DNA of 64,000 nucleotides from Escherichia phage vB_EcoM_G17: the sequence record MK327931.1. One strand, 5' to 3'. This document shows positions 1 through 17,353 of the stretch, piece after piece (within the stretch, counting starts at the first letter, position 1; every line of letters starts with the position of its first letter). Under the pieces are notes generated by a model. That model was not told where the DNA came from and made no database searches. It was given only the letters and a program-made list of their open reading frames with translations. The translations under genes were made by a program, and so were the position numbers.

Positions 1-292
1 ATACTATCAGTGTATGTGATTGTTTTTAGAAATGATTTTATATTTCTATTAAACCAATACCACTTTTTGTTTTTATTATAACAACTATACCATTTCTTCA
101 ATATATCAATTGCTTCAGAATTAATTTTTAAAGCAAATTCATCAATTAAAAACATATGATGGTAAAAAATATCACTTTGTTCTTCAGTTAAATTATATTG
201 CTGCATATTCACCTACCCTAGTAACAATGATTCCTTGGGTATTTAGCTCATATAGATCAAAATATGATCAATGGAAAATTGATATACAGCAA

Positions 293-322
293 TAAAAATA
301 GGAATCCCATGATAGGATTCCT
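293..322 (-). terminator. rho-independent terminator downstream of gene 333..779
   Basis: Inverted repeat AGGAATCC / GGATTCCT (300-307 / 315-322), 7-nt loop; T-run follows on minus strand (plus 293-299). Confidence 0.5.
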
Positions 323-332
323 TTTCACAATA

Positions 333-779
333 TTATTTTTGATATGGGGTGTACTGATATTTTTCACAATCAGAAACAGTTAGAACACCTTCATCATAAC
401 CATATTGAAGTACAAGGTCAAATGCTTTATCAACCATAGCAACAACATCTTTATAACGAACAATCTTATGAGATTGATTCTCAACTGCTTTCATAATCCC
501 CATTAGCAACCAGCGACCTTCATCGGTGTGTAATTTAGCAAAGCGTGGACGCTTTGTCGCTGCCATAATATCAGTCCATTCAGCTTTAAAAATGTGTGGA
601 CGTTTTGGAATATCATATAGTGTAGTAGGGAAAGTTACATTATTTTTCTTCATTGCTTCTGCTTGTGCTGCACGATAGCCCTGACGATATAATGGATGCT
701 GCATTTTTAGCTGTTCAGCACTTAGAACTACTTTTGCTTTGTATGCGTCATAACCATCTTTATATTGTGCATTGGACAT
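333..779 (-). CDS. hypothetical protein (148 aa)
   Basis: Uninterrupted minus-strand ORF, co-oriented and tightly packed with neighbours; no motif recognised. Confidence 0.55.
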   Translation of the reverse strand: MSNAQYKDGYDAYKAKVVLSAEQLKMQHPLYRQGYRAAQAEAMKKNNVTFPTTLYDIPKRPHIFKAEWTDIMAATKRPRFAKLHTDEGRWLLMGIMKAVENQSHKIVRYKDVVAMVDKAFDLVLQYGYDEGVLTVSDCEKYQYTPYQK

Positions 780-780
780 A

Positions 781-1098
781 TTATTCTTTTACCTCATCAG
801 TTTGAATGTATTTTTTGTCAGAGAATGTACCGTGTTCTTTACGCACAGCTTCTGCATGTTGAACCGCATCAACTGGATTAATGTTCTTTTTAATTAGTAC
901 TTCATTCATTAATTCAAGTACAATTGCAAAACCATTCAGCACACGCTCAGATTCATCTACATTTTTTAATTCAAGTGCTACTGCACTAATTTGATCGAAC
1001 GCAACATTAATAAAATCGGAATCTTCTAATACATTTGCTACTTCCGTATTATTACGTACTAGTACTTTCATATAATCTCCACAAAGATGATGCCCCAT
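781..1098 (-). CDS. hypothetical protein (105 aa)
   Basis: Minus-strand ORF ending 1 nt before the next gene start; no motif recognised. Confidence 0.5.
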   Translation of the reverse strand: MGHHLCGDYMKVLVRNNTEVANVLEDSDFINVAFDQISAVALELKNVDESERVLNGFAIVLELMNEVLIKKNINPVDAVQHAEAVRKEHGTFSDKKYIQTDEVKE

Positions 1099-1119
1099 AT
1101 TGAGGCATCAAAATCTATC

Positions 1120-1815
1120 TTACACCCACTCTTCTACACCACCGCGACGCTTAACTAAGTACTTGCCTTCTTCGTTACGTGGACCAAGAATAATACCATC
1201 AATGAAACCATGTTCACCATATTCAAGTGCTTCTTCTGCATTTAACCACAAATCGCGGTCAGCATCTTTTAGTAATTGTTCATGTGATACACCTACAGCT
1301 TCTGCAATTTCTTTGGTCAACAATGTATTCAGTGCATCAGAATGTTGTAGGGAAATCTTCTGGTCTGTAATTAGACCTTGTGTACCAGAACTTACTTGGT
1401 GACACATGAAGTATGAGCGTTTACCACCTAAACGGAAACCTTTAGTCCCAATAACAGATTGTGTATAGCAACCCATTGATGCTGCATAGCCCATTACTAC
1501 AGTGCGAATTGGCGAAATACAAGACTTAGCAACATCTGCAATACCCAAACCTGCGTGTACTGAACCACCCGGTGAACTAATGTAGAATGTAATAGGGGAA
1601 TCACCTTGTGAGTCTAACCATACCAATTGTTGTTTGATGATATGTGCCATTTGATCATTGAAATCAGTATCAAGGAAAATGATACGGTCTTGCATCATAC
1701 GAGATGCTAGATCATATGTACGTTCTGAACCATTAACTTTCTCAACTACGTAAGGAATAGAAATGTTACGTACTTCGCCATTAGCATAACCACCAAACAT
1801 GAATTGTTCAACCAT
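1120..1815 (-). CDS. clpP: ClpP-family serine protease homologue
   Basis: 231 aa; ClpP/S14-like core: 'ISSPGGSVHAGLGI' (GGS nucleophile region), 'MGYAASMGC', 'MCHQVSSG' (His region). Confidence 0.7.
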   Translation of the reverse strand: MVEQFMFGGYANGEVRNISIPYVVEKVNGSERTYDLASRMMQDRIIFLDTDFNDQMAHIIKQQLVWLDSQGDSPITFYISSPGGSVHAGLGIADVAKSCISPIRTVVMGYAASMGCYTQSVIGTKGFRLGGKRSYFMCHQVSSGTQGLITDQKISLQHSDALNTLLTKEIAEAVGVSHEQLLKDADRDLWLNAEEALEYGEHGFIDGIILGPRNEEGKYLVKRRGGVEEWV

Positions 1816-1879
1816 TATTAATTTCCTCTATTATTTCGTTGTTGTGAGTATTATATCACTAAGATTTAAAATGTCCAAA

Positions 1880-2320
1880 CTATTTTACTGGAATATTTGA
1901 AAAGAAATCAGTCATCCAATACGCCGTCTCTTTGTTGAATAATACTGGATCAAACTTAAGTAACTCAACATGACTTGTATCATACACGCTTGTATCGGTA
2001 ATGTCAAACAAAGTTTTAGTACTGAATAGTGGATTACTCACTAGAAAGTAGTAATCAGCAGTAGTGCTAATGTCATCATAAAACACACCGTCATACCATC
2101 CATCATCATATACATAAACAGAATCGTCATGAAGATAGTAAACTTCTATATGTAAACTCAAGTTCTTCATGGTTTCAATCATTTTTGCCGTATGAGGATT
2201 TAACTTATTGACATTTTCAAACACATAAGAGTGTTTTTTATTCATATCAACAAATGAAAATATTCGTACTGAACGTATATTCATATTACTCCAAATAAAC
2301 AAGTGAATTAATGAAATCAT
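1880..2320 (-). CDS. hypothetical protein (146 aa)
   Basis: Minus-strand ORF; no motif recognised. Confidence 0.5.
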   Translation of the reverse strand: MISLIHLFIWSNMNIRSVRIFSFVDMNKKHSYVFENVNKLNPHTAKMIETMKNLSLHIEVYYLHDDSVYVYDDGWYDGVFYDDISTTADYYFLVSNPLFSTKTLFDITDTSVYDTSHVELLKFDPVLFNKETAYWMTDFFSNIPVK

Positions 2321-2669
2321 ATTTCAATTTATCATCAACATAATTCAAATCAACTTTAATCATCGGAGCATGGGAACGTATAGACAGTGTTTCCATAAAG
2401 TACTGATTAAGTTTGTATGTATGGAAAAGATGAATATCTCGTTTCAATACCACCATTACTTCCCCGAACAGATCACAGAGTTCAACTTCAGTGTTAGTTG
2501 GGTCAAACCCATAACGATTCTTTAATGTACGTGGTTCTTTATTTCGATAATAATGCACAGCTTTATTACTATTCACTAACAAGTGATGATATGCATTACT
2601 ATAAACTGAGCAAATAACTCGGCTTGGATAATTGGTATATTCTGGCAGTTCAAAATAAATTAATGACAC
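2286..2669 (-). CDS. hypothetical protein (127 aa)
   Basis: Minus-strand ORF; overlaps the downstream gene by 35 nt, so start/stop context is uncertain. Confidence 0.45.
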   Translation of the reverse strand: MSLIYFELPEYTNYPSRVICSVYSNAYHHLLVNSNKAVHYYRNKEPRTLKNRYGFDPTNTEVELCDLFGEVMVVLKRDIHLFHTYKLNQYFMETLSIRSHAPMIKVDLNYVDDKLKYDFINSLVYLE

Positions 2670-2681
2670 AATATCCTCTCA

Positions 2682-3485
2682 TTAAATTTCAAATACAAAT
2701 TTAGGATTGTAATCAAAATTCTCACAAGCTCCACTGTATGATTCATAGCCTCGTGGATTACAAATGATACGTGTCTTACCAATGTGGTAGTCAAAACTAC
2801 TATGAACATGACCATGAATCCAAACATCAGCACCCAAATCTTCAATGTACTGATCCATATCGGAACAGTAACAACCATTCAGTGAATCATTTTTATATTT
2901 TGGTGAAACACTTTGATAACTTGGTGCGTGATGGGTAACCACGATGACCTTGAAATCATTATCATGCATAAAGCGAACTGTGTCAATAGAATTTTTGATA
3001 AATTGTTTATCTTTGTGATGCATAAACTCAGTATCATCTGGTGTCAGTTTCTTACGCCAAGGCTCTGATGTTGTTCCATGACGGATATGTTTGTAATCGT
3101 TCATCTTCAGACGAGCATCAAACTTCGTCAAAGAATTACCTTTATCGAAGTCTGTCCACAGAGTACTACCAACAAGCAGTACTCCGTCCAGCCATACAAA
3201 TTTGTTTTGCAAAAAGATGAAATTTGGAATCTCATCTTGCATATCGGACAGTACTTTATGCGTTTTGTGGATATTGGAACCATAATATTCATGATTGCCA
3301 GGAACCAGTACTACATTCTTAAACTGCTTACATAGTGATTCTATACCAGTACGGTAACGACTGCGTTTAACTTCATCGAAGTCCCCAGCAATAATCAGTA
3401 CTGTATCACTGTAATCACCACTATGGAGGTAATCAGTCCCACCGTGTACATCAGATGTTACAACAAATTTCATAATCACCTCCAA
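2682..3485 (-). CDS. calcineurin-like metallophosphoesterase
   Basis: Metallophosphatase motifs 'SDVHG', 'IAGDFDE', 'PGNHEYY', 'VVTHHAP', 'HGHVHSS'. Likely true start is the second Met (MKFVV, 3473). Confidence 0.7.
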   Translation of the reverse strand: MEVIMKFVVTSDVHGGTDYLHSGDYSDTVLIIAGDFDEVKRSRYRTGIESLCKQFKNVVLVPGNHEYYGSNIHKTHKVLSDMQDEIPNFIFLQNKFVWLDGVLLVGSTLWTDFDKGNSLTKFDARLKMNDYKHIRHGTTSEPWRKKLTPDDTEFMHHKDKQFIKNSIDTVRFMHDNDFKVIVVTHHAPSYQSVSPKYKNDSLNGCYCSDMDQYIEDLGADVWIHGHVHSSFDYHIGKTRIICNPRGYESYSGACENFDYNPKFVFEI

Positions 3486-3492
3486 TAAATGG

Positions 3493-4911
3493 TTAACCTA
3501 ATGCGTCAATAATACTGTTTGAGAACACTTCAACAGCACTCTCACGAATTTCTAAGATACGAGTATAATCATCACAAGTGTTTTTGTCAAATCTAAATTC
3601 AATAAACACTGGTAAGAACAGTGATGGCTCACCAGTACGCTTGTCGAATACAATGTCATTACACTCAACTGTAACCACTTTACCAATAAGTTCTTGCATT
3701 CTTTCCCAAATGGTTTTAAATGTCCATTCAGCATCTTTCTCTTTGATACCAGTACCCACATTAACTTTCAATGAACCACAAGCACTTTCCAGTTGTAAAG
3801 AACCTAGGCTTCCTTTACGTTTACCTTCACCTTCATTGAAACCAACAATACGTAAGTCCAGTTGCATTTTCAATTTCATTTTCAACTGCTTAGGTGAAGT
3901 ATGAGATTTCCAGATACCATCTTCACATTTCAGTACTGAACCCTCTTCACCTTCGTTCATTAGTTCACTATTGTACTCAAATGCTTCTTTGATGTTTAGA
4001 ACTTTACGGAATCCAACCATACGAACAAAATCACTATTGAGTTCGTTAATTGCATCTACTAAGATCTCGCGACGTTCTTTACGTTTTACATCCCATACAC
4101 CTTCACAAAATGCATCATATGGAACAACATCCCATAGAACGAATACAGTACGCATTGCTTCATTCTGACTGATGCTATCTTTACCAGCTTTCTGAATTAT
4201 ACCGTTGCCAGTAGTGCGTGGGAGAATGGTTTCTCCATCATTGTCCAGTACTACACCTTCCCCCATAAAGACTACACCACTACTAAAACGTTCATCTTTA
4301 CTTTGGATGATGTGAGCAAGACCTGCCATCTCACCATCACGACAACCCAGGAAGTCGTATAGTTTACCATTACGGGATGTAGAAGTTAATGAACCATTAA
4401 TGACAACGTGGTTTAAGTACTGACCATCCATTTTCACTTCTGATATAGCGTAACCATAATCTTTGAAGTTGATGTTCTTTGCAGTCTTTTTGTCAATCAA
4501 AGAACAACGCATATATGGTTCGTCTTTGATGAATCCTTTACCAAACACATCATTGCAGTTCTTCTCCTGAATACCACAATCAAGGTTCTTAGTGAGCATT
4601 CTACGTAGAACTTCCTGATCATCTTCAGATACAGAACCCAGTACTGAAGCAATGAAATCACGCCCCGCATTTCCTGTCACATCACGCTTGTAAATGCATT
4701 CTAGCTTATCAATTGCTTCATCTAACGTCATATGTTGATATACGTCATCAGCGGCAGGGAGCTTCTTATAGCCACTAACGATAGAAGGGTCTAGAGTATA
4801 TTTCAGTACTTTTTGTAAAGTTACATTATCTTTATTTTGTTCAAGAATAGCCTTTTTGCCCAGAGTACTGCTAGTATTTTTAATGCTTTCAAGAATTGCT
4901 AAAATGCTCAT
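3493..4911 (-). CDS. 30: ATP-dependent DNA ligase (T4 gp30-like)
   Basis: 472 aa; N-terminus 'ILAILESIKNTSSTLGKKAILEQNKDN' parallels T4 gp30 as recalled; adenylation motif 'KMDGQ'; 'EGVVLD'-type motif. Confidence 0.85.
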   Translation of the reverse strand: MSILAILESIKNTSSTLGKKAILEQNKDNVTLQKVLKYTLDPSIVSGYKKLPAADDVYQHMTLDEAIDKLECIYKRDVTGNAGRDFIASVLGSVSEDDQEVLRRMLTKNLDCGIQEKNCNDVFGKGFIKDEPYMRCSLIDKKTAKNINFKDYGYAISEVKMDGQYLNHVVINGSLTSTSRNGKLYDFLGCRDGEMAGLAHIIQSKDERFSSGVVFMGEGVVLDNDGETILPRTTGNGIIQKAGKDSISQNEAMRTVFVLWDVVPYDAFCEGVWDVKRKERREILVDAINELNSDFVRMVGFRKVLNIKEAFEYNSELMNEGEEGSVLKCEDGIWKSHTSPKQLKMKLKMQLDLRIVGFNEGEGKRKGSLGSLQLESACGSLKVNVGTGIKEKDAEWTFKTIWERMQELIGKVVTVECNDIVFDKRTGEPSLFLPVFIEFRFDKNTCDDYTRILEIRESAVEVFSNSIIDALG

Positions 4912-4922
4912 TGTATATTCCT

Positions 4923-6125
4923 TTATAGATAATACTTTCCAATATAAAGTGGATTACTAATTGATAGTTGAACGTGACATGGTTTGTCTTGGTAGTAACG
5001 AGTGCTTGATGTTTTGCGTTCATTTGGTGGGAAGAATGGGGAACGATAGCCATTCCATGTACTAAATGATGAGTGTTCATTAATATCAACATCCATTACC
5101 ATAATCCCATTATCATCAATTTGAACTGGATATGCACTAAAGCGTTCAAATTTATCATTATAATGGATATTATAATCTCCACTACGCCCATAATAACTAC
5201 GCGTTGTATTATTACTTACACCAAAAAATACGCGATATGTTTGTTCATTATCTTTAGTCATAAATGGTACGTTCTCGTTGAAACGTCCATTATTCATAAG
5301 ATCATCAACATTTATTTCTTCGTATTTAATTTTAAGGTCTTTTGCTTTAAATGATTTATTGTGTACCAGTACTGGAATGTTAGATTCACCTAATGGGTTA
5401 TGTCTGTTTGTTCTATAGCTTTGCCAAAATTCATTAGCAAGTTTAATTTCTTCATCTGCCGTAGTCTTCTTATTCAAGAGTGCACGAGGTTCAAGATTGT
5501 AATTATCCAAACGTTGATTCAATGCATAAGTTCCACGAGTACTGTTAAAAAGTAAATGATAAACTGAACTTTTGTCGGGATATGCAAATTCTTTAGTTTT
5601 CTTTATACAAATTGCATGTACTTTACCGCAGTAATAGTAATCTTCTTTAAGATAAGTGAAACCATCACCAACTTTAAGACCTGCTACAGTTTCTTTTTGT
5701 TGTTCTTTTTTATTTTCTTTTTCAACTAACTTAGCAAACGTTTTTGTTTTACCATTAATTAATTCTAAGTTATTGTTGAAAAACATTGGGTCTACAAAAA
5801 CACCTTTGATTATATCGTTATTGATAATTAAATCATTCATGTTTTTTGCACTAATCATAAATTCAAATCCTTCTGGGTGACGGATCGTGAAATATGTTTC
5901 TCGTGCATGAGTTGTTAATTTATCAACTACACAAAATCCCGTAGTTGGAACGTTGTCAATATATAACGATGGAAGATTGTTCTTCTTTGCCCAGTACTCT
6001 GCTCTCTCTTTCTTTGTTTCAAACGCTTTTGTATGTGATTTTGTTGCATCGATAATAAAACCATCAACTTGGTTGTGGTTTACATAGGAACGTGCAACAA
6101 ATAACTTCTCTGGAAAATCCATCAA
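4923..6125 (-). CDS. hypothetical protein (400 aa), immediately upstream of ligase
   Basis: Long minus-strand ORF; no catalytic motif recognised. Confidence 0.55.
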   Translation of the reverse strand: MMDFPEKLFVARSYVNHNQVDGFIIDATKSHTKAFETKKERAEYWAKKNNLPSLYIDNVPTTGFCVVDKLTTHARETYFTIRHPEGFEFMISAKNMNDLIINNDIIKGVFVDPMFFNNNLELINGKTKTFAKLVEKENKKEQQKETVAGLKVGDGFTYLKEDYYYCGKVHAICIKKTKEFAYPDKSSVYHLLFNSTRGTYALNQRLDNYNLEPRALLNKKTTADEEIKLANEFWQSYRTNRHNPLGESNIPVLVHNKSFKAKDLKIKYEEINVDDLMNNGRFNENVPFMTKDNEQTYRVFFGVSNNTTRSYYGRSGDYNIHYNDKFERFSAYPVQIDDNGIMVMDVDINEHSSFSTWNGYRSPFFPPNERKTSSTRYYQDKPCHVQLSISNPLYIGKYYL

Positions 6126-6541
6126 ATTGTCCTCATTGTGCTGATTGCTTTTAATGTGTCAAACAATGCACCATATTTTACTTGCATTAGTTGATCACCA
6201 GCAGGAAGATTCATACGCATAACAGCCATGTCTTCAATCATTTCAGACGTACACAGTACTGCTACACAGGTAATAGCATCATTCAATCCAGCTTCATTGA
6301 ATTTGGCAAACGGAACTTTTCCCTGTTTGCTAAGGTTGTTATAATAAGAATTTAACTTATCATGTCCACCAGCATTTAGTACTACAATAGTTTCGTGTTC
6401 ATAGTACCATTCATCAATAATAGTACTGAAAGCAGTACCTTCATATTCTTTAATTAGTTTAACACCAGCATGGAATGCTTGAATACCAGCTTGGACACCT
6501 TGGCAGTACATATTAGTTAAGCAATACAATTTCATTTCCAT
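6122..6541 (-). CDS. hypothetical protein; weak resemblance to Pth2-type peptidyl-tRNA hydrolase
   Basis: 139 aa; 'GVQAGIQAFHAGV' and 'ETIVVLN...EAGLNDAITCVAV' loosely recall Pth2 motifs. Tentative. Confidence 0.4.
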   Translation of the reverse strand: MEMKLYCLTNMYCQGVQAGIQAFHAGVKLIKEYEGTAFSTIIDEWYYEHETIVVLNAGGHDKLNSYYNNLSKQGKVPFAKFNEAGLNDAITCVAVLCTSEMIEDMAVMRMNLPAGDQLMQVKYGALFDTLKAISTMRTI

Positions 6542-6759
6542 ACCTCTTGTTTTTCTACGTAGCCTTTCCCATCACAGTGTGGACAAGCATAAAAGCTGCG
6601 GTAATCTTCTGACGGTACTTGTTGTGTTCCATTACATGTAGGACATACTTTACGTGCACCAGAAATAATACGTTCATGGTGTTCAGCTTGTTTAGCTGAA
6701 TCAAAAATACGACCATCTTCAGTTTGGTATTTTTCTACCATAACTTGAATTACTTTCAT
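6532..6759 (-). CDS. small Cys-rich (zinc-finger-like) protein
   Basis: 75 aa; two CxxC pairs 'CPTCNG...CPHCDGKG' (DnaJ-type CxxCxG spacing). Confidence 0.5.
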   Translation of the reverse strand: MKVIQVMVEKYQTEDGRIFDSAKQAEHHERIISGARKVCPTCNGTQQVPSEDYRSFYACPHCDGKGYVEKQEVWK

Positions 6760-6769
6760 TTCTATTTCC

Positions 6770-7039
6770 TTATAAAAATGTTAAATCTTCAGTACTTAAT
6801 TGTGATAATTTACCATCATATTCTATTTCAACATATACATCTTGGTCATAAACAGCAACTACACGTTTAATAACTCCAACCTTCACGACATTCTTTTTGT
6901 AGTTGAACTCAACTGAACAACCAATAAGTTTATTTGATAGAATCTCACGTATTTGATTTGCATGGTCTTTTAGGATAGAATTAATAGATTTTTTCATAAT
7001 ATATCTATCATTCAAATATTTTTTAACTACATCATGCAT
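6770..7039 (-). CDS. small hypothetical protein (KYxGKxV-like family)
   Basis: 89 aa; 'NKLIGCSVEF' fits the motif seen in several ~90-aa paralogues. Confidence 0.45.
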   Translation of the reverse strand: MHDVVKKYLNDRYIMKKSINSILKDHANQIREILSNKLIGCSVEFNYKKNVVKVGVIKRVVAVYDQDVYVEIEYDGKLSQLSTEDLTFL

Positions 7040-7044
7040 AATTA

Positions 7045-7803
7045 TTACCTTTTGAAACGATTGAATGAGTACTCATCTTTTTCTTTACGTAAGTATCTCA
7101 TCCCACCACTTTGTGGAGTAGCGAGAGTTAAGTCACCCGTCAAGAACTGACTATCAATCCAAATGCGATTACCGTAAATGAGTGGGTCTGTAACTGCTGT
7201 ATGTCCACTAAAGACACAATGCACTCCATCTAACTTAGGTGCATAATATGTATTATTAGTTCTACAATAATCGAATGTTTTTCTATCCCACAAGCACTTA
7301 TCAATTATATCAGCACTAAGTGATTTTGTCCCATTAACAAATCGTTCCCATGTTGTATATTCCAACGGAACTCCAGCATGAACTAACCCAATCTTCAATC
7401 CTCGGTGATTGATTTGGATAATCATAGGGAGATCCTTTAAGTACTGACGAAAGAATTGAATGCCTGTTCCTCCAACTTCATCAAGGAATTTATCACCACC
7501 ATTACTTATCCAACAATGATACCAATCTCGAAGTGTTTCCGAATCAACGCACATCATCTCATGATTACCCGCAATCATGTAACGATTTTCTCCGAACAAA
7601 AATTCAAAAAGGAGCTTTGAATTTTGTTCTCCACGGTCGATAATATCACCTACACTGAAAACATAATCATTGTGTGTAATACCAAATTCTTTCACTGTAG
7701 CATCCCATAGTTTACCATTACCATGCAAATCACCTACAATGTATAAATCTTTATCATCAGGTACAGTTACTTCTAAGAAGTGTTTCATTATTACTCCAAC
7801 CAT
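7045..7803 (-). CDS. PPP-family Ser/Thr phosphatase-like metallophosphoesterase
   Basis: Motifs 'GDLHGN', 'GDIIDRGEQ', 'GNHEMM' (GDxHG / GDxxDRG / GNHE). Confidence 0.75.
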   Translation of the reverse strand: MVGVIMKHFLEVTVPDDKDLYIVGDLHGNGKLWDATVKEFGITHNDYVFSVGDIIDRGEQNSKLLFEFLFGENRYMIAGNHEMMCVDSETLRDWYHCWISNGGDKFLDEVGGTGIQFFRQYLKDLPMIIQINHRGLKIGLVHAGVPLEYTTWERFVNGTKSLSADIIDKCLWDRKTFDYCRTNNTYYAPKLDGVHCVFSGHTAVTDPLIYGNRIWIDSQFLTGDLTLATPQSGGMRYLRKEKDEYSFNRFKR

Positions 7804-8042
7804 ATAATATTAGTGTGTTTAGTAACTTGTGTTCCAGCAAAAGAACCATCTTTAAGATAAGTATTAATTTTAAAACGCCATTCACCACCACTAATATACA
7901 TATCAGTAATAATATACTTTCCATACCCTCTGGAGTTTATTAATCGTACTTCTTGACCAATATATTTTGGCTTCAGATCATTTATAAAATCATCAGCCAA
8001 AGACATAAGATATCGCAAATGTGATAAGTCAGTGTTGAACAT
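7791..8042 (-). CDS. small hypothetical protein (KYxGKxV-like family)
   Basis: 83 aa; 'KPKYIGQEVRL'. Confidence 0.45.
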   Translation of the reverse strand: MFNTDLSHLRYLMSLADDFINDLKPKYIGQEVRLINSRGYGKYIITDMYISGGEWRFKINTYLKDGSFAGTQVTKHTNIIWLE

Positions 8043-8257
8043 TATTTCTTTCTCTTATATTTGTTAATAATATCTTGGGTAAGTGAAATAAAAATATATA
8101 CTAATGTTACAGGCCAAATAATAGCCATCAGTGCTGCTGTTTGGAGATTCATGATAATCATGATTTCATCTTTAAAACAACCCCAATTAAGTACTAGAAA
8201 GTTGGTTATAAATGTAACAAATGCTACAAAACCATATATTGCAAAAAATGTTATCAT
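8042..8257 (-). CDS. small membrane protein
   Basis: 71 aa; two hydrophobic helices. Confidence 0.45.
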   Translation of the reverse strand: MITFFAIYGFVAFVTFITNFLVLNWGCFKDEIMIIMNLQTAALMAIIWPVTLVYIFISLTQDIINKYKRKK

Positions 8258-8259
8258 AA

Positions 8260-8589
8260 TTATTCCTCATCATCCACTAAAACAAGATAATCCAAACTTA
8301 ACTCGGTATCTATGTAACAATCACAATTCAAGTACTCAATTTCAGCACCTATAGTTCTCCCATTCTTAAATATCTCAATGATTTTCATTCTAGTATTGGG
8401 ATTAATGTGTTCAATGTCGTATTCGTATTCAGGGTCAATATACTCACTTGTCATACGTTTGATGTATTGTTCCGAATATCGTACAGTTTTACCTATAAGA
8501 TCATTACTCAACGTCTGATAAAAATCATCTTGAATTTTGAATAATGACCTATAAAAAATATTATGTTGAATTAGTGGTTTCATTGACAT
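8260..8589 (-). CDS. small hypothetical protein (KYxGKxV-like family)
   Basis: 109 aa; 'NDLIGKTVRY'. Confidence 0.45.
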   Translation of the reverse strand: MSMKPLIQHNIFYRSLFKIQDDFYQTLSNDLIGKTVRYSEQYIKRMTSEYIDPEYEYDIEHINPNTRMKIIEIFKNGRTIGAEIEYLNCDCYIDTELSLDYLVLVDDEE

Positions 8590-9230
8590 TAATCACAACT
8601 TCCAGACGATGAACTTGAATCAGAACTAGAGCTATCATAGGAACAAGAATCAGAGGAAGAACTGCTGTGACGGCTATAATCACTGTAATCATCATTGTTG
8701 TAGATTGGTGATGTTACGATTGCTGCTGCGGTCGCTGCCGTTGCAATTTGTGCAGTATGGTCATGAACACCTAGTTGTGGTTCATCCTTAGATTTACCTT
8801 TGTTCTTACCTTTAGTGTAACGAGCTTTCTTTGCAGTTTTAGTATTTTTCTGTACTTTAGGAGCTTTTGGTTTCACATCTTCAACGACTGGAACTACATT
8901 CACTACAACTTTAGGATCAGTTTCTTCAAGTGTATTATACACTTTAACTTGCATTTGAACTTCAACTTCTTTAACTTCTTCTTTAACTTCTTCTTTAACT
9001 TCTGGAATAACTGTTTCTGGTGCTGGAGTGATTTTATCAAGTTCTTTAGTAATAAAGAAGCTTGTATTTTTCTCACCTAGCATAACAAGAAGACCAATGG
9101 CAATCACTGGACTTAGTACTGTACCAAGTACTACATAACCTAGAACACTTCGGTTATAGTTATATGCAAGCATACCAGAAATAATAATACCGATTACATA
9201 TGCACTGCTAAGAATAATTGGGGTTAACAT
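8589..9230 (-). CDS. membrane-anchored protein with EVKEEVK repeats and Ser/Asp-rich tail
   Basis: 213 aa; N-terminal TM segments, 'EVKEEVKEEVKEVE', basic patch, C-terminus 'SSSSSDSCSYDSSSSDSSSSSGSCD'. Confidence 0.55.
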   Translation of the reverse strand: MLTPIILSSAYVIGIIISGMLAYNYNRSVLGYVVLGTVLSPVIAIGLLVMLGEKNTSFFITKELDKITPAPETVIPEVKEEVKEEVKEVEVQMQVKVYNTLEETDPKVVVNVVPVVEDVKPKAPKVQKNTKTAKKARYTKGKNKGKSKDEPQLGVHDHTAQIATAATAAAIVTSPIYNNDDYSDYSRHSSSSSDSCSYDSSSSDSSSSSGSCD

Positions 9231-9534
9231 ATTCTACTCCTTTGTATATAAATTTACTAACTTCTTCGATGTATAAAGACAACCCTGAACGTTCATTTAG
9301 AACTAACCAAGCACCAAAACCACATCGAATCTCGGATATATGAAACTCTTCTACACTATAAATTGAATACGCGTTAAATGGACATATTTCATCAGATATA
9401 CTTACCACATAGTTATTATTAATTGAATCTAACACCTGGGTATTGTATAAATTATTAGTACTGAAAATCTGCATTAACGAGCTAGAAAGCATCTCGGTTG
9501 TCTTTTCTAATATTGTTAAAAACGAACCATTCAC
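9208..9534 (-). CDS. hypothetical protein (108 aa)
   Basis: Minus-strand ORF. Confidence 0.4.
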   Translation of the reverse strand: MNGSFLTILEKTTEMLSSSLMQIFSTNNLYNTQVLDSINNNYVVSISDEICPFNAYSIYSVEEFHISEIRCGFGAWLVLNERSGLSLYIEEVSKFIYKGVEYVNPNYS

Positions 9535-9591
9535 TTCAACTTCTCCCTATTGGTGATGTAATCAAATTATATCACCGAATTCTGATACGTC

Positions 9592-9897
9592 TCATGATAT
9601 TCGCATTTCATCTATATATAATGAACATGATTCAGAATTATCGTCTAAACTTAAACCTAAATCGACCATCAAACCGCAATGCGTTCCCCAGAATTTCTTT
9701 ATGTATAGTTTTTTGCTATTATTACCTAAATCATAAACATATTCATTTTTAAATATACTTTTTAATTCTTCACATATACATTTTATTATCTTCATTACTT
9801 GATTATGATATTCGTATGGTATTCCATCAAGTTCGTTAATTATTAATGCAAAACCATCATCATAGTACTTAAGTTTATTGAATGTTTGTATATCCAT
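9592..9897 (-). CDS. hypothetical protein (101 aa)
   Basis: Minus-strand ORF. Confidence 0.45.
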   Translation of the reverse strand: MDIQTFNKLKYYDDGFALIINELDGIPYEYHNQVMKIIKCICEELKSIFKNEYVYDLGNNSKKLYIKKFWGTHCGLMVDLGLSLDDNSESCSLYIDEMRIS

Positions 9898-10194
9898 TTA
9901 ATATATAATCTCACTAGCTTCTATTGTGTAGACACCATCATCAGTCATTAATCTAACTGCAACTTTAATATTATTAGACATTCGTGTAACTATCAATCCA
10001 ATAATTACACCATTCTTTAAAGTACCGTTATGGTATCTTACTTGTACTTTAGTTTTGTTATCAATTAGGTATCTTCGAATTTGATGAATTTCAGTTCTAA
10101 ACAGTTCTAAATAAACTTCACTATATTCCTTATCTGAACCGTCTGAACACCAGTACAATAAATTTACTTGTTCAAATAATTTTTTTATATTCAT
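9898..10194 (-). CDS. small hypothetical protein (98 aa)
   Basis: Minus-strand ORF abutting its neighbour. Confidence 0.45.
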   Translation of the reverse strand: MNIKKLFEQVNLLYWCSDGSDKEYSEVYLELFRTEIHQIRRYLIDNKTKVQVRYHNGTLKNGVIIGLIVTRMSNNIKVAVRLMTDDGVYTIEASEIIY

Positions 10195-10550
10195 AAAAAT
10201 CTCACAGATTTAATATTACTGGTTACATGATTTACCCAAGTGTTATCGAACTTGTAAACAATTGTATTAAGTGATTTATGAAAATTAACCTCGCACACTA
10301 ATGCCTTGGAACCATTGATTGTACAGACCGTGGATGGTAAGTTGTTTGCTAATATCTCTTTTTCATCTAAACATAGTGAACTAATACAATCATAATAGAG
10401 AGGTTCAAGAACTTTTTCAGTACTGAGAAATTCAAAAGAAAGATCATCTATTAGTTTTATGTAATCGAATAAATTATGATAATATTCATTCATTGCAGAT
10501 CCTTTTAAATTTAGCATTATTAGAATATGTATATGAATGACCGAAATCAT
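10191..10550 (-). CDS. hypothetical protein (119 aa)
   Basis: Minus-strand ORF; 4-nt overlap downstream. Confidence 0.4.
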   Translation of the reverse strand: MISVIHIHILIMLNLKGSAMNEYYHNLFDYIKLIDDLSFEFLSTEKVLEPLYYDCISSLCLDEKEILANNLPSTVCTINGSKALVCEVNFHKSLNTIVYKFDNTWVNHVTSNIKSVRFL

Positions 10551-10740
10551 TTACACCATGTACATTTAGTACACCGTCACTGAAATAAATTCGATCAATA
10601 GTGAGTTCACGTTTATAATCCCAATCATCATACCAGCACAGAACACGAATACCTTTGTACTTTGTAGTTAAATCATTTTCTAATATAGTCAAGTAATCAA
10701 TATGACTTTTGAATATCTCTAAGTCCTGCTCAAACATCAT
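10486..10740 (-). CDS. small hypothetical protein (KYxGKxV-like family)
   Basis: 84 aa; 'TKYKGIRVLCW'. Confidence 0.4.
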   Translation of the reverse strand: MMFEQDLEIFKSHIDYLTILENDLTTKYKGIRVLCWYDDWDYKRELTIDRIYFSDGVLNVHGVNDFGHSYTYSNNAKFKRICNE

Positions 10741-10997
10741 TGTTCCTCGTATAATTCTATATCATCAACACCAACTTGGCGAATTGCAGTACTTCTGTTG
10801 AATGTATTTTTTTCAAACAAACATACTGTTAAACGTATTTCACACTTCAATGCACTATAATAAATCATATCAATAACACCATATGTTTCATACATTTCTA
10901 CGTATACATTTCGACCTAAATACTTTTCTTCTAAATCAGTAATTAGACTATTGATAAGATTACCTATCTGTGTTATATCTGTGTGAAATTTATCCAT
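10737..10997 (-). CDS. small hypothetical protein (KYxGKxV-like family)
   Basis: 86 aa; 'EKYLGRNVYV'. Confidence 0.45.
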   Translation of the reverse strand: MDKFHTDITQIGNLINSLITDLEEKYLGRNVYVEMYETYGVIDMIYYSALKCEIRLTVCLFEKNTFNRSTAIRQVGVDDIELYEEQ

Positions 10998-11185
10998 TAT
11001 AATAAACCTCTCACATAAAACATTGATGAAAATAGATAATCATCAGTACTGGAATTTAGTAGTTTATCAAAACTATAATTTTTATGCTTATTTTCATACA
11101 AAGACAATCTATAGTATCGTTCTATATTTTCTAAGTAGTCTTTTTGTAATAACATCTGTGTTGTTACATTCACTATAATGTACCT

Positions 11186-11220
11186 TAAAAGAAAAAGGGA
11201 CCAATATATGATCCCTTTTG
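11186..11220 (-). terminator. rho-independent terminator downstream of polynucleotide kinase gene
   Basis: Stem AAGGGA / TCCCTT (11195-11200 / 11212-11217); T-run follows on minus strand (plus 11191-11196 A-run). Confidence 0.5.
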
Positions 11221-11222
11221 TA

Positions 11223-12155
11223 TTAGAAATTTCCTTCAGCCACTTGGAAAACTTTCAACCCAAGTAGCTTACGCCACATGAATACAACTTGATCGCGGTC
11301 ATCATATACCTTTTTAACATCGTAATGATCAACCACATTTTTCATGTACAGGTCGAATTTTACAACATCATCAGGACGTTTATCATCGATATCTCGCATA
11401 AACAATGCATCGTAAGGAACACCCCAATTCTTAAGCCACTGTTCGGTATCAGCACGACACCCTTCAGTACGCCCACTCATGACGATAATCTTGCGTTTAT
11501 GAAAAACTGCTTCAGCGATAATAGACAAAATAACTTCTTCATCAGGTGTATCCTGAAGAACAGTACTTTCATCGTAAGGATTACGACCCCATTTATGAGC
11601 AAGAGTTCCATCGATATCAACGATGATAGCAGCTTCGCGTGAATTACCATAGTAACCAATGTGTAATGCCTTACTATAATAGTACGTATCTGCCATTGTG
11701 TCAATGATATCATCTTGTACTGAACGCTCACGCTGGAGGTTATATTTCTTACAAAGTTTTACGAACTCTTTAATCTTAAAGAATTCATGAACATCTGCAC
11801 CACGGTCTTCATTAGGTACAAAATCATCATAGAAGTTCTTTTCTTTGTAATCATAACCATTATCTTTAGCCCATACTTTCCAGAGATTACGGAAATGTTG
11901 TTTAAGGTTTGTATCGGATATGATGATGTTCCAACCATTCTCTGCTGCTGAATTTGCTGCACTGAACTGTAAATTAGTTACGTACTGCTCATTAGCATCG
12001 TTGAATTTGTAAGCATCATGTGACCCAGCCATAGATTCACGAATATCATCACGGTTGATGTTGATAGTCTTGGATTTGGCATTTTTAATTTCTTGAACTG
12101 CCCATGTGGTTTTACCACACCCAGGTAATCCAACTGTTAGTGTAATAGTTGGCAT
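11223..12155 (-). CDS. pseT: polynucleotide 5'-kinase / 3'-phosphatase (T4 PseT-like)
   Basis: 310 aa; N-terminal P-loop 'GLPGCGKTT'; C-terminal HAD motif 'IVDIDGTLA'. Confidence 0.85.
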   Translation of the reverse strand: MPTITLTVGLPGCGKTTWAVQEIKNAKSKTININRDDIRESMAGSHDAYKFNDANEQYVTNLQFSAANSAAENGWNIIISDTNLKQHFRNLWKVWAKDNGYDYKEKNFYDDFVPNEDRGADVHEFFKIKEFVKLCKKYNLQRERSVQDDIIDTMADTYYYSKALHIGYYGNSREAAIIVDIDGTLAHKWGRNPYDESTVLQDTPDEEVILSIIAEAVFHKRKIIVMSGRTEGCRADTEQWLKNWGVPYDALFMRDIDDKRPDDVVKFDLYMKNVVDHYDVKKVYDDRDQVVFMWRKLLGLKVFQVAEGNF

Positions 12156-12167
12156 TATTACTCCTTG

Positions 12168-12482
12168 TTACTCAATGAATTCTACATCTTCGAGTTTGTG
12201 CCATCCTCTTGAAAGGTTTCTTGTTCCGTTATTGTATTCAGTGTATACAAAGCATTCACCATTTACTAAATTACCAATAGCAGTACGCGATACTTTAACA
12301 TCAAGAATTATAGTACTGAACCATTCTCTGATTGTATGATCCCAGCATTTAACTTTACATCCAATCAATGTTTTCTTAAAATCGAAAACGTAATCTTCGA
12401 CCATTGATTCGACAGATTCTATTAGTTCCTTTTCAATGTACTTTAACTTTTCGATCCTCTCAAATGCAAGTTCTTTATTCAT
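12168..12482 (-). CDS. small hypothetical protein (KYxGKxV-like family)
   Basis: 104 aa; 'KKTLIGCKVKCW'. Confidence 0.45.
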   Translation of the reverse strand: MNKELAFERIEKLKYIEKELIESVESMVEDYVFDFKKTLIGCKVKCWDHTIREWFSTIILDVKVSRTAIGNLVNGECFVYTEYNNGTRNLSRGWHKLEDVEFIE

Positions 12483-12488
12483 ATGTCC

Positions 12489-12743
12489 TCAATTATCTAG
12501 AACATCCACTATCAAACAAGCTTCAATAACGAAACAATCATCTAATTCAAAGAGTAATTGATAGTCATCAGAAAACTTCACTTTAGTAATGTAAGCACTT
12601 TCAATTCCACCACTATGATAAGAACTATATAAAATACATTTACCTGTATATTCCTTACGGATACGACTAAATTCTTCATATAAATGAGTAATAAACGTAT
12701 CCGCAGTTTTGTTGTAGTATTTTAGGTCACTTACTGTGCTCAT
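12489..12743 (-). CDS. small hypothetical protein (KYxGKxV-like family)
   Basis: 84 aa; 'KEYTGKCILY'. Confidence 0.45.
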   Translation of the reverse strand: MSTVSDLKYYNKTADTFITHLYEEFSRIRKEYTGKCILYSSYHSGGIESAYITKVKFSDDYQLLFELDDCFVIEACLIVDVLDN

Positions 12744-12957
12744 TAACTTTTCCTACTCCAAATCGTTTGGAGATTTTCACAAGTACAGATTCATCACAAC
12801 GAATACTAGCAGTATCATTGGATGAACTGTACTTTAATGGGGTCCACTGTAATTGAGATTCTTCTAGGAACTTGATACATCTGAAGTAATCTTTCAGAGA
12901 AAGAAATTTAACTACTGACATATCCTGAACAATACTATGCTGAACTTCAACTTTCAT
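12727..12957 (-). CDS. small hypothetical protein (76 aa)
   Basis: Minus-strand ORF. Confidence 0.4.
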   Translation of the reverse strand: MKVEVQHSIVQDMSVVKFLSLKDYFRCIKFLEESQLQWTPLKYSSSNDTASIRCDESVLVKISKRFGVGKVNEHSK

Positions 12958-12966
12958 ATGAACTCC

Positions 12967-13224
12967 TTATAGTGGATCAAATTTATTTTCACGTTTCGAT
13001 GTATAGCGAGTTACATCATGTATTCTCGGCTTAACACCTTTTGGTTTCCTTTTCTTCTTGTATTCAGTACTACTACATCCGAAGGTATTCTCGATTCGTT
13101 TCTTACTTATCTTCACACCTTTCATTGAGCGTTTGTGCTGTAATTCATCGATTTCTTCTTGTATTTTCCTGAACTCAGTCGGAGAAAGGGAACCGTCATT
13201 TTTATACTTAGGTTTAGCCATCAC
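12967..13224 (-). CDS. small highly basic protein (possible nucleic-acid binding)
   Basis: 85 aa, Lys/Arg-rich ('KKRKPKGVKPR'). Confidence 0.45.
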   Translation of the reverse strand: MMAKPKYKNDGSLSPTEFRKIQEEIDELQHKRSMKGVKISKKRIENTFGCSSTEYKKKRKPKGVKPRIHDVTRYTSKRENKFDPL

Positions 13225-13251
13225 TTCTCCTTGTGCTTAGGCTAGATAGTA

Positions 13252-14394: not shown

Positions 14395-14699
14395 TTTATT
14401 ACCTCTATATCTACATCAGTTCCATAATATGATATTAATCCATCATCAGATTCACACTGAATAGACAACTCAGATTCATAGTATGTTACTTTATTCACTG
14501 TTAGTACTTGTTCTTCAATTACTCCAGAAAAATAATTCATCTCACGTACACGAACTTTAGTTCCTTTAGGTAGTTCATCTGAGATTTTTCGAACAAGATC
14601 ATAAGCAGCCTGTTCAAGTGTGTACAGTAATTGTAATCTATCTTGAATATTCATATTATTTCCACCAACTGGTATCACGTCCATTAGACAAAGATTCAT
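14391..14699 (-). CDS. small hypothetical protein (KYxGKxV-like family)
   Basis: 102 aa; 'LPKGTKVRVREM'. Confidence 0.45.
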   Translation of the reverse strand: MNLCLMDVIPVGGNNMNIQDRLQLLYTLEQAAYDLVRKISDELPKGTKVRVREMNYFSGVIEEQVLTVNKVTYYESELSIQCESDDGLISYYGTDVDIEVIK

Positions 14700-15920: not shown

Positions 15921-15927
15921 TTTAGTT

Positions 15928-16230: not shown

Positions 16231-16274
16231 CTTTGTACCTGCGAAAAAAGACCAGCAAACGCTGGCCTAAGAAT

Positions 16275-16556: not shown

Positions 16557-16566
16557 AGAAGTTTCC

Positions 16567-17304: not shown

Positions 17305-17353
17305 TCCTTGTGTTAATTATTGTTCCTTACCCATTATTATATCATGAATTAAA

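What the first reader, a model, noticed from the sequence alone, without database searches (positions are those of the whole stretch)
1120..1815. Stand-alone ClpP-like protease in an early-gene context
A 231-aa ClpP homologue with apparent Ser and His active-site regions sits among early/accessory genes rather than head-morphogenesis genes, and no ClpX/ClpA-like unfoldase is visible in the window. It could hijack host unfoldases to degrade host factors, or process phage proteins. The ~50 paralogues with a conserved Q-S/G junction elsewhere in the window are one speculative substrate pool.
Basis: inference. Interest (0 to 1): 0.45.

Follow-up and report, generated by a model that had tools for sequence, protein, structure and literature searches.

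The report
Phage ClpP with its own ClpA
This is a real, catalytically intact ClpP protease gene in a 350-kb E. coli jumbo phage, but it is already annotated and is not stand-alone, because the same phage also encodes a ClpA-type unfoldase and a ClpS-like adaptor elsewhere in its genome, plus a separate capsid-maturation protease.

Summary
The ORF at 1120-1815 (minus strand, 231 aa) is a full-length, true ClpP-type serine peptidase. The Ser113-His139-Asp188 triad, oxyanion hole, axial-gate residues and handle helix are all present and invariant across 118 homologues. The predicted fold matches solved ClpPs (target TM 0.90-0.96). The window is 100% identical to Escherichia phage Sharanji (Asteriusvirus), where this gene is already annotated clpP.

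It is not the head protease. A T4 gp21-type S77 protease lies between the capsid and portal genes about 120 kb away.

"Stand-alone" holds only inside the window. About 85 kb upstream of the window start the genome encodes a 762-aa ClpA (43% identical to E. coli ClpA, all ATPase motifs, docking loop IGM in place of IGL), and elsewhere a ClpS-like adaptor. All three genes co-occur across the Rak2-like jumbo phages. ClpP and ClpA share a sharply defined promoter class.

The proposed Q-S/G substrate junction in the paralogues does not exist.

Most likely this is the core of a phage-encoded ClpAP(S) degradation machine. Clade-specific docking-pocket changes and a conserved C-terminal extension are the only new details. 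It is known in kind and noted in the literature, but functionally untested.

The parts
1120..1815 (-). clpP coding sequence (231 aa), equal to Sharanji gp496
   Evidence: ORF list. Pfam CLP_protease 141 bits. PDB ClpPs at E about 1e-36 over residues 20-208. AlphaFold2 model pLDDT 91.2 with Foldseek target TM 0.90-0.96 to solved ClpPs. 100% identical to the annotated clpP in OR545507.
1759..1815 (-). N-terminal residues 1-19, a putative propeptide preceding the conserved S-I-P-Y-V-V-E axial-loop start
   Evidence: Length and sequence vary widely across the clade while the SIP[YF]V[VL]E start is conserved. Residues 1-10 have pLDDT below 50. By analogy with the 14-aa E. coli ClpP propeptide (established knowledge); actual processing is inferred.
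1477..1479 (-). Codon of catalytic Ser113 (E. coli mature S97)
   Evidence: TCA read in the sequence. Invariant in 66+9+43 homologues and in A1.
1399..1401 (-). Codon of catalytic His139 (E. coli H122)
   Evidence: CAC read in the sequence. Invariant.
1252..1254 (-). Codon of catalytic Asp188 (E. coli D171), preceded by Arg187 (R170)
   Evidence: GAT read in the sequence. Invariant.
1123..1185 (-). Clade-specific C-terminal extension of about 21 residues (GPRNEEGKYLVKRRGGVEEWV)
   Evidence: The tail measured from the Y182 column is 32-34 residues in all 66 clade members, against a median of 11 in cellular ClpPs. The motif GxRNExGxxxVxRRxGxxEW[VI] is conserved. It is predicted as beta strands with pLDDT above 90.
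1850..1877 (-). Promoter-like site TGGACA-16 nt-TGaTATAAT (extended -10) in the 64-nt gap upstream of clpP
   Evidence: 11 of 12 consensus match with TG. Read directly in the sequence. Member of a 19-copy class, all on the minus strand, with fixed 16-nt spacing; the class also precedes clpA.
1824..1829 (-). Shine-Dalgarno AGAGGA, 8 nt before the ATG at 1815
   Evidence: Read directly in the sequence.
1088..1110 (-). 10-bp hairpin just after the clpP stop codon, with a weak T-tail: a possible attenuating terminator or stabilising element
   Evidence: Terminator-like scan and sequence. The T-run is poor and the next gene's RBS follows at once, so function is uncertain.

Best explanation
The gene encodes the proteolytic core of a phage-encoded ClpAP(S) ATP-dependent protease. 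Shown: it is a full-length, catalytically intact, true ClpP-type peptidase, and the same genome encodes a complete ClpA-type double-ring unfoldase with a ClpP-docking loop and a ClpS-domain adaptor. Inferred: the protein is made with a short N-terminal propeptide and assembles into the usual two-ring barrel. Its apical pockets are docked by the phage's own ClpA (gp377, IGM loop), with the ClpS-like gp293 as a candidate adaptor. The machine unfolds and degrades cytoplasmic proteins during infection, either host proteins or short-lived phage proteins. It does not mature the capsid; a separate S77 (T4 gp21-type) protease in the head module does that. It is transcribed from a sigma-70-like extended -10 promoter of the same class as clpA, so probably with the non-structural genes.
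For: ClpP identity: Pfam 141 bits over the full length. PDB ClpPs match at E 1e-36 including the N-terminal axial loop. S97/H122/D171, G68/M98, R170 and the gate residues P4/V6/E8/E14/R15 are invariant or nearly so across 118 homologues. The model has pLDDT 91 with a beta-hairpin at 22-35 and a handle helix at 149-174, and target TM is 0.90-0.96. NCBIfam true-ClpP models score 152-155 bits over the full length, against 51 bits for the head-maturation ClpP-related model. Partners: genome-wide phmmer finds exactly one ClpP, one ClpA (602 bits) and one ClpS-like gene, and no ClpX or Lon. The ClpA is 43% identical to E. coli ClpA over 732 columns including the N-domain. It has KRSIGMSG where E. 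coli has RKSIGLIH, and intact Walker A/B, KYRG and GYVG pore loops and GARPM. It matches TIGR02639 ClpA in one stretch of 755 bits, but ClpB only in two pieces. The ClpS Pfam domain is above the gathering score, and the family profile matches E. coli ClpS at E 2.4e-13. Co-occurrence: about 69, 70 and 71 phage records carry close ClpP, ClpA and ClpS-like homologues across the same genera. Four metagenomic contigs of about 350-371 kb carry both ClpP and ClpA. Shared promoter: nnGACA-16-TGnTATAAT occurs 19 times, all on the minus strand, with 0-3 at other spacings. It lies 35 nt before the clpP ATG and 41 nt before the clpA ATG, and before none of 18 other sampled genes. Not the head protease: Peptidase_S77 gp358 lies between the gp23-like capsid gene and the gp20-like portal gene. 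The S77 protease, and nothing named Clp, appears in the phAPEC6 virion proteome and in the RaK2 main text. The ligase-phosphoesterase-ClpP-dCMP deaminase synteny is conserved in RaK2 and GAP32.
Against: No biochemical or genetic data exist for any phage of this group; a phrase search of the literature found nothing. The three genes are dispersed, with clpA about 85 kb and the clpS-like gene about 168 kb from clpP. Two docking-pocket positions that are hydrophobic in cellular ClpPs are small or polar here: position 82 is F/Y in cells and S/N here, and position 114 is L in cells and G here. Docking of any partner is therefore not assured. About a quarter of the ClpA clade has weakened tripeptides such as IGG, IGA, MSM and MNM. 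The ClpS-like protein keeps only part of the N-degron pocket: D35 and T38 are kept, while N34D, D36P, M40A and H66N are changed. In RaK2 and GAP32, clpP has no intergenic gap for its own promoter, so the shared-promoter argument applies to Asteriusvirus only. The timing of that promoter class has not been measured. Phage CBB virions gave one ClpP peptide at 4.5% coverage.
Confidence: 0.65

Rival explanations
1. The phage ClpP works mainly or only with host unfoldases (E. coli ClpX or ClpA), redirecting host degradation capacity.
For: The N-terminal gate residues that communicate with unfoldases are conserved (P4, V6, E8, E14, R15), as are several pocket positions (Y62, M92, I/V90). clpP and clpA are not adjacent. 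ClpP is 36% identical to E. coli ClpP with the same fold.
Against: A complete ClpA with a docking loop is encoded in the same genome and co-inherited across the clade. Pocket positions 82 and 114 and the C-terminal region near the pocket differ from the host ClpP in a clade-specific way. That argues for a dedicated partner rather than the host's IGF/IGL loops.
Confidence: 0.15
2. It is a head-maturation (prohead) protease, as RefSeq and pharokka-style annotations of PBECO4, GAP32, JP4 and others say.
For: The best PHROG hit is phrog_94 'head maturation protease' at E 4.6e-44. Several records carry that name. CBB virions gave one ClpP peptide.
Against: The head module has its own S77 protease next to the capsid and portal genes, and that protease is detected in virions. 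clpP lies about 120 kb away among nucleotide-metabolism genes, in conserved synteny. The NCBIfam head-maturation model scores 51 bits against a cut-off of 120, while true-ClpP models score 152-155 bits. Nothing named Clp is in the 62-protein phAPEC6 virion list.
Confidence: 0.05
3. The phage subunit co-assembles with or caps host ClpP rings, giving a ClpP1P2-like hetero-complex that poisons or retargets the host protease.
For: The handle region and the R170/D171 ring-ring sensor are conserved. Heteromeric ClpP1P2 barrels exist in other organisms (established knowledge; PDB 4u0g is among the fold hits).
Against: Identity to host ClpP is only 36%. No evidence for an interface was obtained. The presence of a dedicated ClpA makes a self-contained machine the simpler reading.
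Confidence: 0.07
4. It is a decaying or catalytically dead ClpP relic (pseudo-protease).
For: It scores below NCBIfam equivalog cut-offs: 152 bits against 308.6.
Against: The triad, oxyanion hole and R170 are invariant in all 66 clade members at 58-96% identity. The gene has a strong promoter and SD. It is conserved across at least six phage genera.
Confidence: 0.02

Closest known systems
E. coli ClpAP with the ClpS adaptor (ClpP: MEROPS S14, Pfam PF00574; ClpA: TIGR02639; ClpS: PF02617)
   Same: The ClpP fold, catalytic triad, oxyanion hole, axial gate and handle helix are the same. ClpA has the same two-ring architecture with an N-domain, pore loops and a docking tripeptide at the homologous position. 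The ClpS core domain is recognisable.
   Different: It is phage-encoded and dispersed over three loci. ClpP is 36% and ClpA 43% identical to the host proteins, and all three score below NCBIfam equivalog cut-offs. The docking loop is IGM rather than IGL. Pocket positions 82 and 114 are small or polar. ClpP has a conserved extra C-terminal extension of about 21 residues and a 3-residue insertion after YG. The ClpS-like protein is 181 aa against 106 aa and has an altered N-degron pocket.
ClpP, ClpA and ClpS genes already reported in Rak2-like and other jumbo phages (RaK2 ORF489, GAP32_103, PBECO4, 121Q, Atu_ph07; Iyer et al. 2021, PMC7824862; Attai et al. 2018, PMC6102473)
   Same: It is the same orthologous gene, at 66-100% identity and in the same synteny. 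The literature already notes ClpP as a patchily distributed jumbo-phage peptidase likely aimed at the host, ClpS in other phages, and ClpA as conserved in most Rak2-like phages.
   Different: Nothing differs in kind. The residue-level details given here (pocket changes, C-terminal extension, loop spectrum, shared promoter class) were not found in those papers.
ClpP-related phage head-maturation proteases (NCBIfam NF045542 and NF045540; PHROG 94)
   Same: They share the ClpP/crotonase-type catalytic domain, and the PHROG 94 profile matches strongly.
   Different: Those proteases sit in the head module, often fused to scaffold or capsid protein. This gene is 120 kb from the head module, is full-length true ClpP with axial loops, and scores 51 bits against a cut-off of 120 on NF045542. 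The phage has a separate S77 prohead protease.
T4 gp21-type prohead core protease (Peptidase_S77, PF03420)
   Same: Both are serine proteases in the same phage.
   Different: The fold and family are unrelated. In this genome the S77 enzyme is gp358, located between the capsid and portal genes, and it is the enzyme seen in virion proteomes.
Human mitochondrial ClpP (C-terminal extension near the ClpX-docking surface)
   Same: It is a ClpP with an added C-terminal tail beyond the bacterial core. Human ClpP chains are among the sequence hits.
   Different: The phage extension is unrelated in sequence and is predicted to be a structured beta-hairpin. That the human tail modulates ClpX affinity is recalled from memory and was not tested here.

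Membership tests
ClpP peptidase (MEROPS S14, Pfam PF00574) | Domain match above the curated Pfam threshold over the full domain | tested here: met
   141.3 bits against a gathering score of 20.2, covering profile positions 2-179 of 182.
ClpP peptidase (MEROPS S14, Pfam PF00574) | Ser-His-Asp catalytic triad and oxyanion hole (E. coli S97, H122, D171; G68, M98) | tested here: met
   S113, H139, D188, G84 and M114 are present, and invariant in 118 homologues.
ClpP peptidase (MEROPS S14, Pfam PF00574) | ClpP fold with N-terminal axial hairpin and handle helix plus the R170/D171 ring sensor | tested here: met
   Model pLDDT 91.2 with strands at 22-27 and 30-35 and a helix at 149-174. Target TM 0.90-0.96 and rmsd 1.1-2.1 A to solved ClpPs. 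R187-D188 are invariant.
ClpP peptidase (MEROPS S14, Pfam PF00574) | NCBIfam equivalog or subfamily score cut-off for cellular ClpP (TIGR00493 308.6; NF001368 249) | tested here: not met
   151.6 and 155.2 bits. It is a divergent ClpP, not an equivalog of the cellular enzyme by NCBI's trusted cut-offs.
ClpP peptidase (MEROPS S14, Pfam PF00574) | Hydrophobic apical pocket for IGF/IGL loops (E. coli L23, L48, F49, Y60, Y62, F82, I90, M92, L114, L189; residue list from bioRxiv 10.1101/2023.03.01.530711) | tested here: inconclusive
   Y62, M92 and I/V90 are kept, along with hydrophobic residues at 23, 48, 49 and 189. Position 82 is S/N and position 114 is G in 62 of 66 clade members, whereas cellular ClpPs have Y/F and L.
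ClpP peptidase (MEROPS S14, Pfam PF00574) | Tetradecamer assembly and peptidase activity | not testable with these tools
   Only monomer prediction is available; no biochemistry.
ClpAP(S) ATP-dependent protease system | A class-I Clp/Hsp100 unfoldase of ClpA type (two AAA+ rings, no M-domain) encoded with ClpP in the same genome | tested here: met
   Sharanji gp377, 762 aa. Pfam AAA + AAA_lid_9 + AAA_2 + D2-small. 43% identity to E. coli ClpA over 732 columns. TIGR02639 matches in a single stretch of 755 bits, below the 993 cut-off; ClpB matches only in two pieces. All ATPase and pore-loop motifs are intact.
ClpAP(S) ATP-dependent protease system | ClpP-docking hydrophobic-Gly-hydrophobic tripeptide loop in the unfoldase | tested here: met
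   IGM at the position of the E. coli IGL. The position is retained in 114 clade members, mostly xGM, xGV, xGL or xGF, with about a quarter weakened variants.
ClpAP(S) ATP-dependent protease system | ClpS adaptor with N-degron binding pocket | tested here: inconclusive
   Pfam ClpS at 24.7 bits against a gathering score of 23. The family profile matches E. coli ClpS at E 2.4e-13, but the pocket residues are only partly kept: D35 and T38 are kept, while N34D, D36P, M40A and H66N are changed. There is no NCBIfam hit.
ClpAP(S) ATP-dependent protease system | Physical ClpA-ClpP complex and ATP-dependent degradation | not testable with these tools
   Indirect support only: co-occurrence and a shared promoter class.
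ClpP-related phage head-maturation protease (NF045542, PHROG 94) | Score above the curated cut-off of the head-maturation model | tested here: not met
   51.3 bits against a cut-off of 120, with partial coverage. PHROG 94 does match (E 4.6e-44), but that profile has no curated cut-off and contains a generic ClpP domain.
ClpP-related phage head-maturation protease (NF045542, PHROG 94) | Location in the head module next to the portal, scaffold or capsid genes, as the phage's prohead protease | tested here: not met
   clpP is at 304.7 kb. The capsid gene is at 182-183 kb, the S77 protease at 184.5-185.1 kb and the portal gene at 186.4-188.1 kb.
ClpP-related phage head-maturation protease (NF045542, PHROG 94) | Presence in proheads or virions | tested here: inconclusive
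   From the literature only. Nothing named Clp is in the phAPEC6 list of 62 virion proteins or in the RaK2 main text (Table S3 not read). One peptide at 4.5% coverage was found in CBB.

The most novel reading that the evidence does not exclude
The Rak2-like jumbo phages carry an orthogonal ClpAPS machine that is insulated from the host's Clp network. In this reading the remodelled ClpP docking pocket (S/N82, G114), the conserved C-terminal beta-hairpin extension beside that pocket, and the xGM-type ClpA loops form a matched lock and key that excludes host ClpX and ClpA. The altered ClpS-like adaptor would give the machine its own degron code, so that the phage can selectively destroy host proteins, such as defence or stress factors, early in infection.
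Probability: 0.2. Interest if true: 0.6.

Novelty: already known. Interest (0 to 1): 0.27.

Why it matters
The practical value is corrective. Many deposited genomes of this phage group label this gene "head maturation protease", which the evidence here contradicts. Its proper context is a three-gene phage Clp system, not a lone protease. Biologically, a virus that brings its own ATP-dependent unfoldase, peptidase and adaptor could reshape the infected cell's proteome independently of the host. Nobody has tested what it degrades. The clade-specific pocket, tail and loop features give concrete mutational targets for testing whether the phage machine is insulated from the host Clp network.

Tried and rejected
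1. Q-S/G junction in the paralogues. BLAST and phmmer clustering with MAFFT alignments found two 32-member families. Neither has such a column, and QS/QG dipeptides are at expectation. Rejected as a substrate hypothesis.
2. Defence or anti-defence family match. PADLOC gave nothing for ClpP or the ClpS-like protein, and only generic AAA+ hits for ClpA.
3. Flanking genes as hidden adaptors or inhibitors. The four small neighbours have no Pfam match.
4. Expression timing from the related phage PA5oct. The main text does not mention Clp, and no supplements are held.
5. Literature on characterised phage ClpP, ClpA or ClpS. Six phrase variants returned zero papers.
6. Loop-pocket covariation. Only a handful of same-genome pairs could be made. 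The VGF-loop contig has T114 and F112 while the xGM-loop genomes have G114. This is suggestive, but n is too small.
7. The 190-bp intergenic repeat as a structured RNA. There is no Rfam hit, and the fold z-score is -0.57.
8. My first promoter regex used the wrong spacer arithmetic. It was redone correctly.

Full report
WHAT IS THERE. The ORF at window 1120-1815 on the minus strand is real: 231 aa with an ATG start. It is preceded by an AGAGGA Shine-Dalgarno 8 nt upstream. In the 64-nt intergenic gap there is a near-consensus promoter, TGGACA-16 nt-TGaTATAAT. A 10-bp hairpin follows the stop codon, but its T-tail is weak. The protein matches Pfam CLP_protease over the whole domain (141 bits, E 4e-41). 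It matches about 100 solved cellular ClpPs at E down to 1e-36, from the N-terminal axial loop (IPYVVE) to the C-terminal YG motif.

SOURCE. The window is 100% identical to Escherichia phage Sharanji (OR545507, Asteriusvirus, 350 kb). It runs from 303631 to the end of the record and wraps to 1-17628. In that record the gene is gp496, already annotated "clpP". Sister records call it ClpP, "protease" or "head maturation protease".

IS IT A LIVE PROTEASE? I aligned 118 homologues plus the query and E. coli ClpP. The homologues comprise 66 from the jumbo-phage clade at 58-96% identity, 9 in an intermediate tier and 43 cellular-like. The triad (E. coli S97/H122/D171, here S113/H139/D188), the oxyanion-hole residues G68/M98 and R170 are invariant. 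The gate residues P4, V6, E8, E14 and R15 are nearly invariant. An AlphaFold2 model is confident (pLDDT 91.2, pTM 0.83). It shows the axial beta-hairpin and the long handle helix. It superposes on solved ClpPs with target-normalised TM 0.90-0.96 and rmsd 1.1-2.1 A. The pseudo-protease refutation criterion is therefore not met.

IS IT THE HEAD PROTEASE? No. Sharanji gp358 (184506-185129) is a Peptidase_S77, T4 gp21-type prohead protease (E 1e-20). It sits between the gp23-like capsid gene and the gp20-like portal gene, about 120 kb from clpP. Published virion proteomes support this. The phAPEC6 list (same genus) includes the S77 protease and nothing named Clp, and the RaK2 main text likewise names only the S77 protease. 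The more distant phage CBB gave one ClpP peptide at 4.5% coverage, which is marginal. NCBIfam separates the two kinds of enzyme. True-ClpP models score 152-155 bits over the full length, while the "head maturation protease, ClpP-related" model scores 51 bits against a cut-off of 120. The "head maturation protease" label in several records most likely comes from PHROG 94, whose profile contains a generic ClpP domain. The gene's neighbourhood is DNA ligase, metallophosphoesterase, ClpP, several hypothetical genes, then dCMP deaminase. This order is conserved in RaK2 and GAP32.

IS IT STAND-ALONE? Only within the window. I searched all ORFs of the 350-kb genome with E. coli ClpP, ClpX, ClpA, ClpS and Lon. 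The search finds exactly one ClpP, one ClpA (602 bits, Sharanji 217594-219882, gp377) and one ClpS-like protein (135529-136074, gp293). It finds no ClpX and no Lon.

The ClpA-like protein is 762 aa and 43% identical to E. coli ClpA over 732 columns, including the N-domain. It has both Walker A/B pairs, the KYRG and GYVG pore loops and GARPM. It matches the ClpA model in one stretch, but ClpB only in two pieces. At the position of E. coli's ClpP-docking IGL loop it has IGM: KRSIGMSG against RKSIGLIH.

The tripeptide position is retained in 114 clade members. Counts are MGM 16, IGM 15, IGV 11, LGM 9, LGL 8 and VGF 6, among others. About a quarter have weaker variants such as IGA, IGG, MSM and MNM. 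gp293 has a ClpS domain above the Pfam gathering score, and its family profile matches E. coli ClpS at E 2.4e-13. The N-degron pocket is only partly kept: D35 and T38 are kept, while N34D, D36P, M40A and H66N are changed.

CO-INHERITANCE AND CO-REGULATION. Close homologues of the three proteins occur in about 69, 70 and 71 phage records. They cover the same genera: Asteriusvirus, RaK2/K64-1, 7t3, GAP32, BF/Yen9-04/pEa and the Xanthomonas phages XbC2/XaC1. PA5oct has ClpP and ClpA more distantly. Several metagenomic contigs of 350-371 kb carry both ClpP and ClpA.

In Sharanji, the promoter architecture nnGACA-exactly 16 nt-TGnTATAAT occurs 19 times, all on the coding strand. At any other spacing there are 0-3 occurrences. 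One copy lies 35 nt before the clpP ATG and another lies 41 nt before the clpA ATG. None of 18 other sampled structural, replication or nucleotide-metabolism genes has one within 400 nt. This suggests common regulation with a non-structural gene set. The timing itself is unmeasured. In RaK2 and GAP32, clpP has no room for its own promoter.

WHAT IS DISTINCTIVE.
(a) Two pocket positions that line the IGF/IGL/ADEP site in E. coli ClpP are changed in a clade-specific way (residue list from bioRxiv 10.1101/2023.03.01.530711). Position 82 is Y/F in 39 of 43 cellular-like sequences but N/S in 54 of 66 clade members. Position 114 is L in 40 of 43 but G in 62 of 66.
(b) All 66 clade members carry a fixed-length C-terminal extension of about 21 residues, GxRNExGxxxVxRRxGxxEW[VI], plus a 3-residue insertion after YG. 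Short cellular ClpPs lack both. The extension is predicted as beta strands with pLDDT above 90. From established ClpP structures, the C-terminus emerges next to the docking cleft. A role in partner selectivity is therefore plausible, but it is inferred.
(c) The N-terminal 4-45 residues before SIP[YF]V[VL]E vary freely, as expected for a removable propeptide.

MECHANISM. Best supported, at about 0.65: this is the peptidase core of a phage-encoded ClpAP(S) machine. Shown: intact ClpP, a complete ClpA with a docking loop, a ClpS-domain protein, their co-occurrence and the shared promoter class. Inferred: barrel assembly, ClpA docking, adaptor use, cytoplasmic substrates of host or phage origin, and non-late timing. 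Rivals are use of host unfoldases (0.15, and not mutually exclusive), hetero-oligomers with host ClpP (0.07), a head-maturation role (0.05) and a dead enzyme (0.02).

THE PARALOGUE IDEA. The window contains two families of 32 members each. One is about 162 aa with the motif EE..FQ.S.V, spanning 15342-55706. The other is about 75 aa with the motif LGTN.QE, spanning 40950-62082. No conserved Q-S/G column exists, and QS+QG dipeptides are at expectation. From established knowledge, ClpP degrades unfolded chains processively without a junction-type specificity. I therefore reject this part of the finding.

NOVELTY. The gene is annotated as clpP in this very genome. ClpP orthologues were annotated in RaK2, GAP32 and PBECO4 more than a decade ago. 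Iyer et al. 2021 singled out ClpP as the most prominent patchily distributed jumbo-phage peptidase, likely aimed at the host, and noted phage ClpS. Attai et al. 2018 noted that ClpA is conserved in most Rak2-like phages. The finding is therefore already known in kind. What remains open is function: no paper in the searchable library characterises a phage ClpP, ClpA or ClpS. I score interest at 0.27. It is ordinary for specialists, with a modest and testable orthogonality hypothesis.

Noticed in passing
window 23151-23357 (= Sharanji 326781-326987); other copies at Sharanji 191995-192200 (L007:41995-42200) and 81174-81366 (L005:31174-31366): A conserved element of about 190 bp (82% mean column identity) lies in three large intergenic gaps with no annotated ORF. 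Two copies lie directly downstream, on the minus strand, of nnGACA-16-TGnTATAAT promoters, so it may be a small RNA family. There is no Rfam match, and the fold is no more stable than shuffles (z -0.57).
   Followed up: partly
Whole Sharanji genome; in the window at 1850-1877 (clpP) and about 23400-23431: A sharply defined promoter class, nnGACA-exactly 16 nt-TGnTATAAT, has 19 copies, all on the minus strand, with 0-3 at other spacings. TGnTATAAT overall is twice the expected count (99 against 48) and 80 of the 99 are on the coding strand. The class precedes clpP, clpA, a tRNA cluster, a PD-(D/E)XK nuclease and the repeat element, but none of the sampled capsid, portal, sheath or terminase genes.
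   Followed up: partly
window 40950-62082: A family of 32 tandemly arranged small genes (63-96 aa) shares a C-terminal-half motif L-G-T-N-Y/F-Q-E. No function is known.
   Followed up: partly
window 15342-55706: A second family of 32 paralogues (median 162 aa) shares a weak 'EE..FQ.S.V' motif. It fills much of the window's second half. No function is known.
   Followed up: partly
window 45874-45958 and 46403-46487 (either side of the Sharanji record ends): An 85-bp direct repeat (96% identical) flanks the point where the linear GenBank record begins and ends. Only 2 window bases separate record position 350000 from position 1, although the record is 350079 bases long, so the deposited ends probably overlap.
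   Followed up: no
Outside the window: Sharanji 125018-125344 and 172768-173067; 136088-136591; 81466-82431: The genome also encodes two GroES-like co-chaperonins, an IF-3 homologue immediately upstream of the ClpS-like gene (13-nt gap, so probably one operon) and an RpoD-like sigma factor. Together with ClpAPS these form a sizeable proteostasis and translation toolkit.
   Followed up: no
window 62001-64000 and 56001-60000: G+C rises to 0.405 in the last 2 kb, against about 0.30-0.35 elsewhere. AT skew drops to about -0.22 across 56-60 kb, the small-paralogue array.
   Followed up: no
ClpP homologues P0032, P0035, P0042 and others: Some clade members carry a precomputed PF25145 (NfeD1b_N) tag. 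On rescanning it is a sub-threshold overlap (26.9 bits against a cut-off of 40) with the related ClpP/NfeD fold, not an extra domain.
   Followed up: yes
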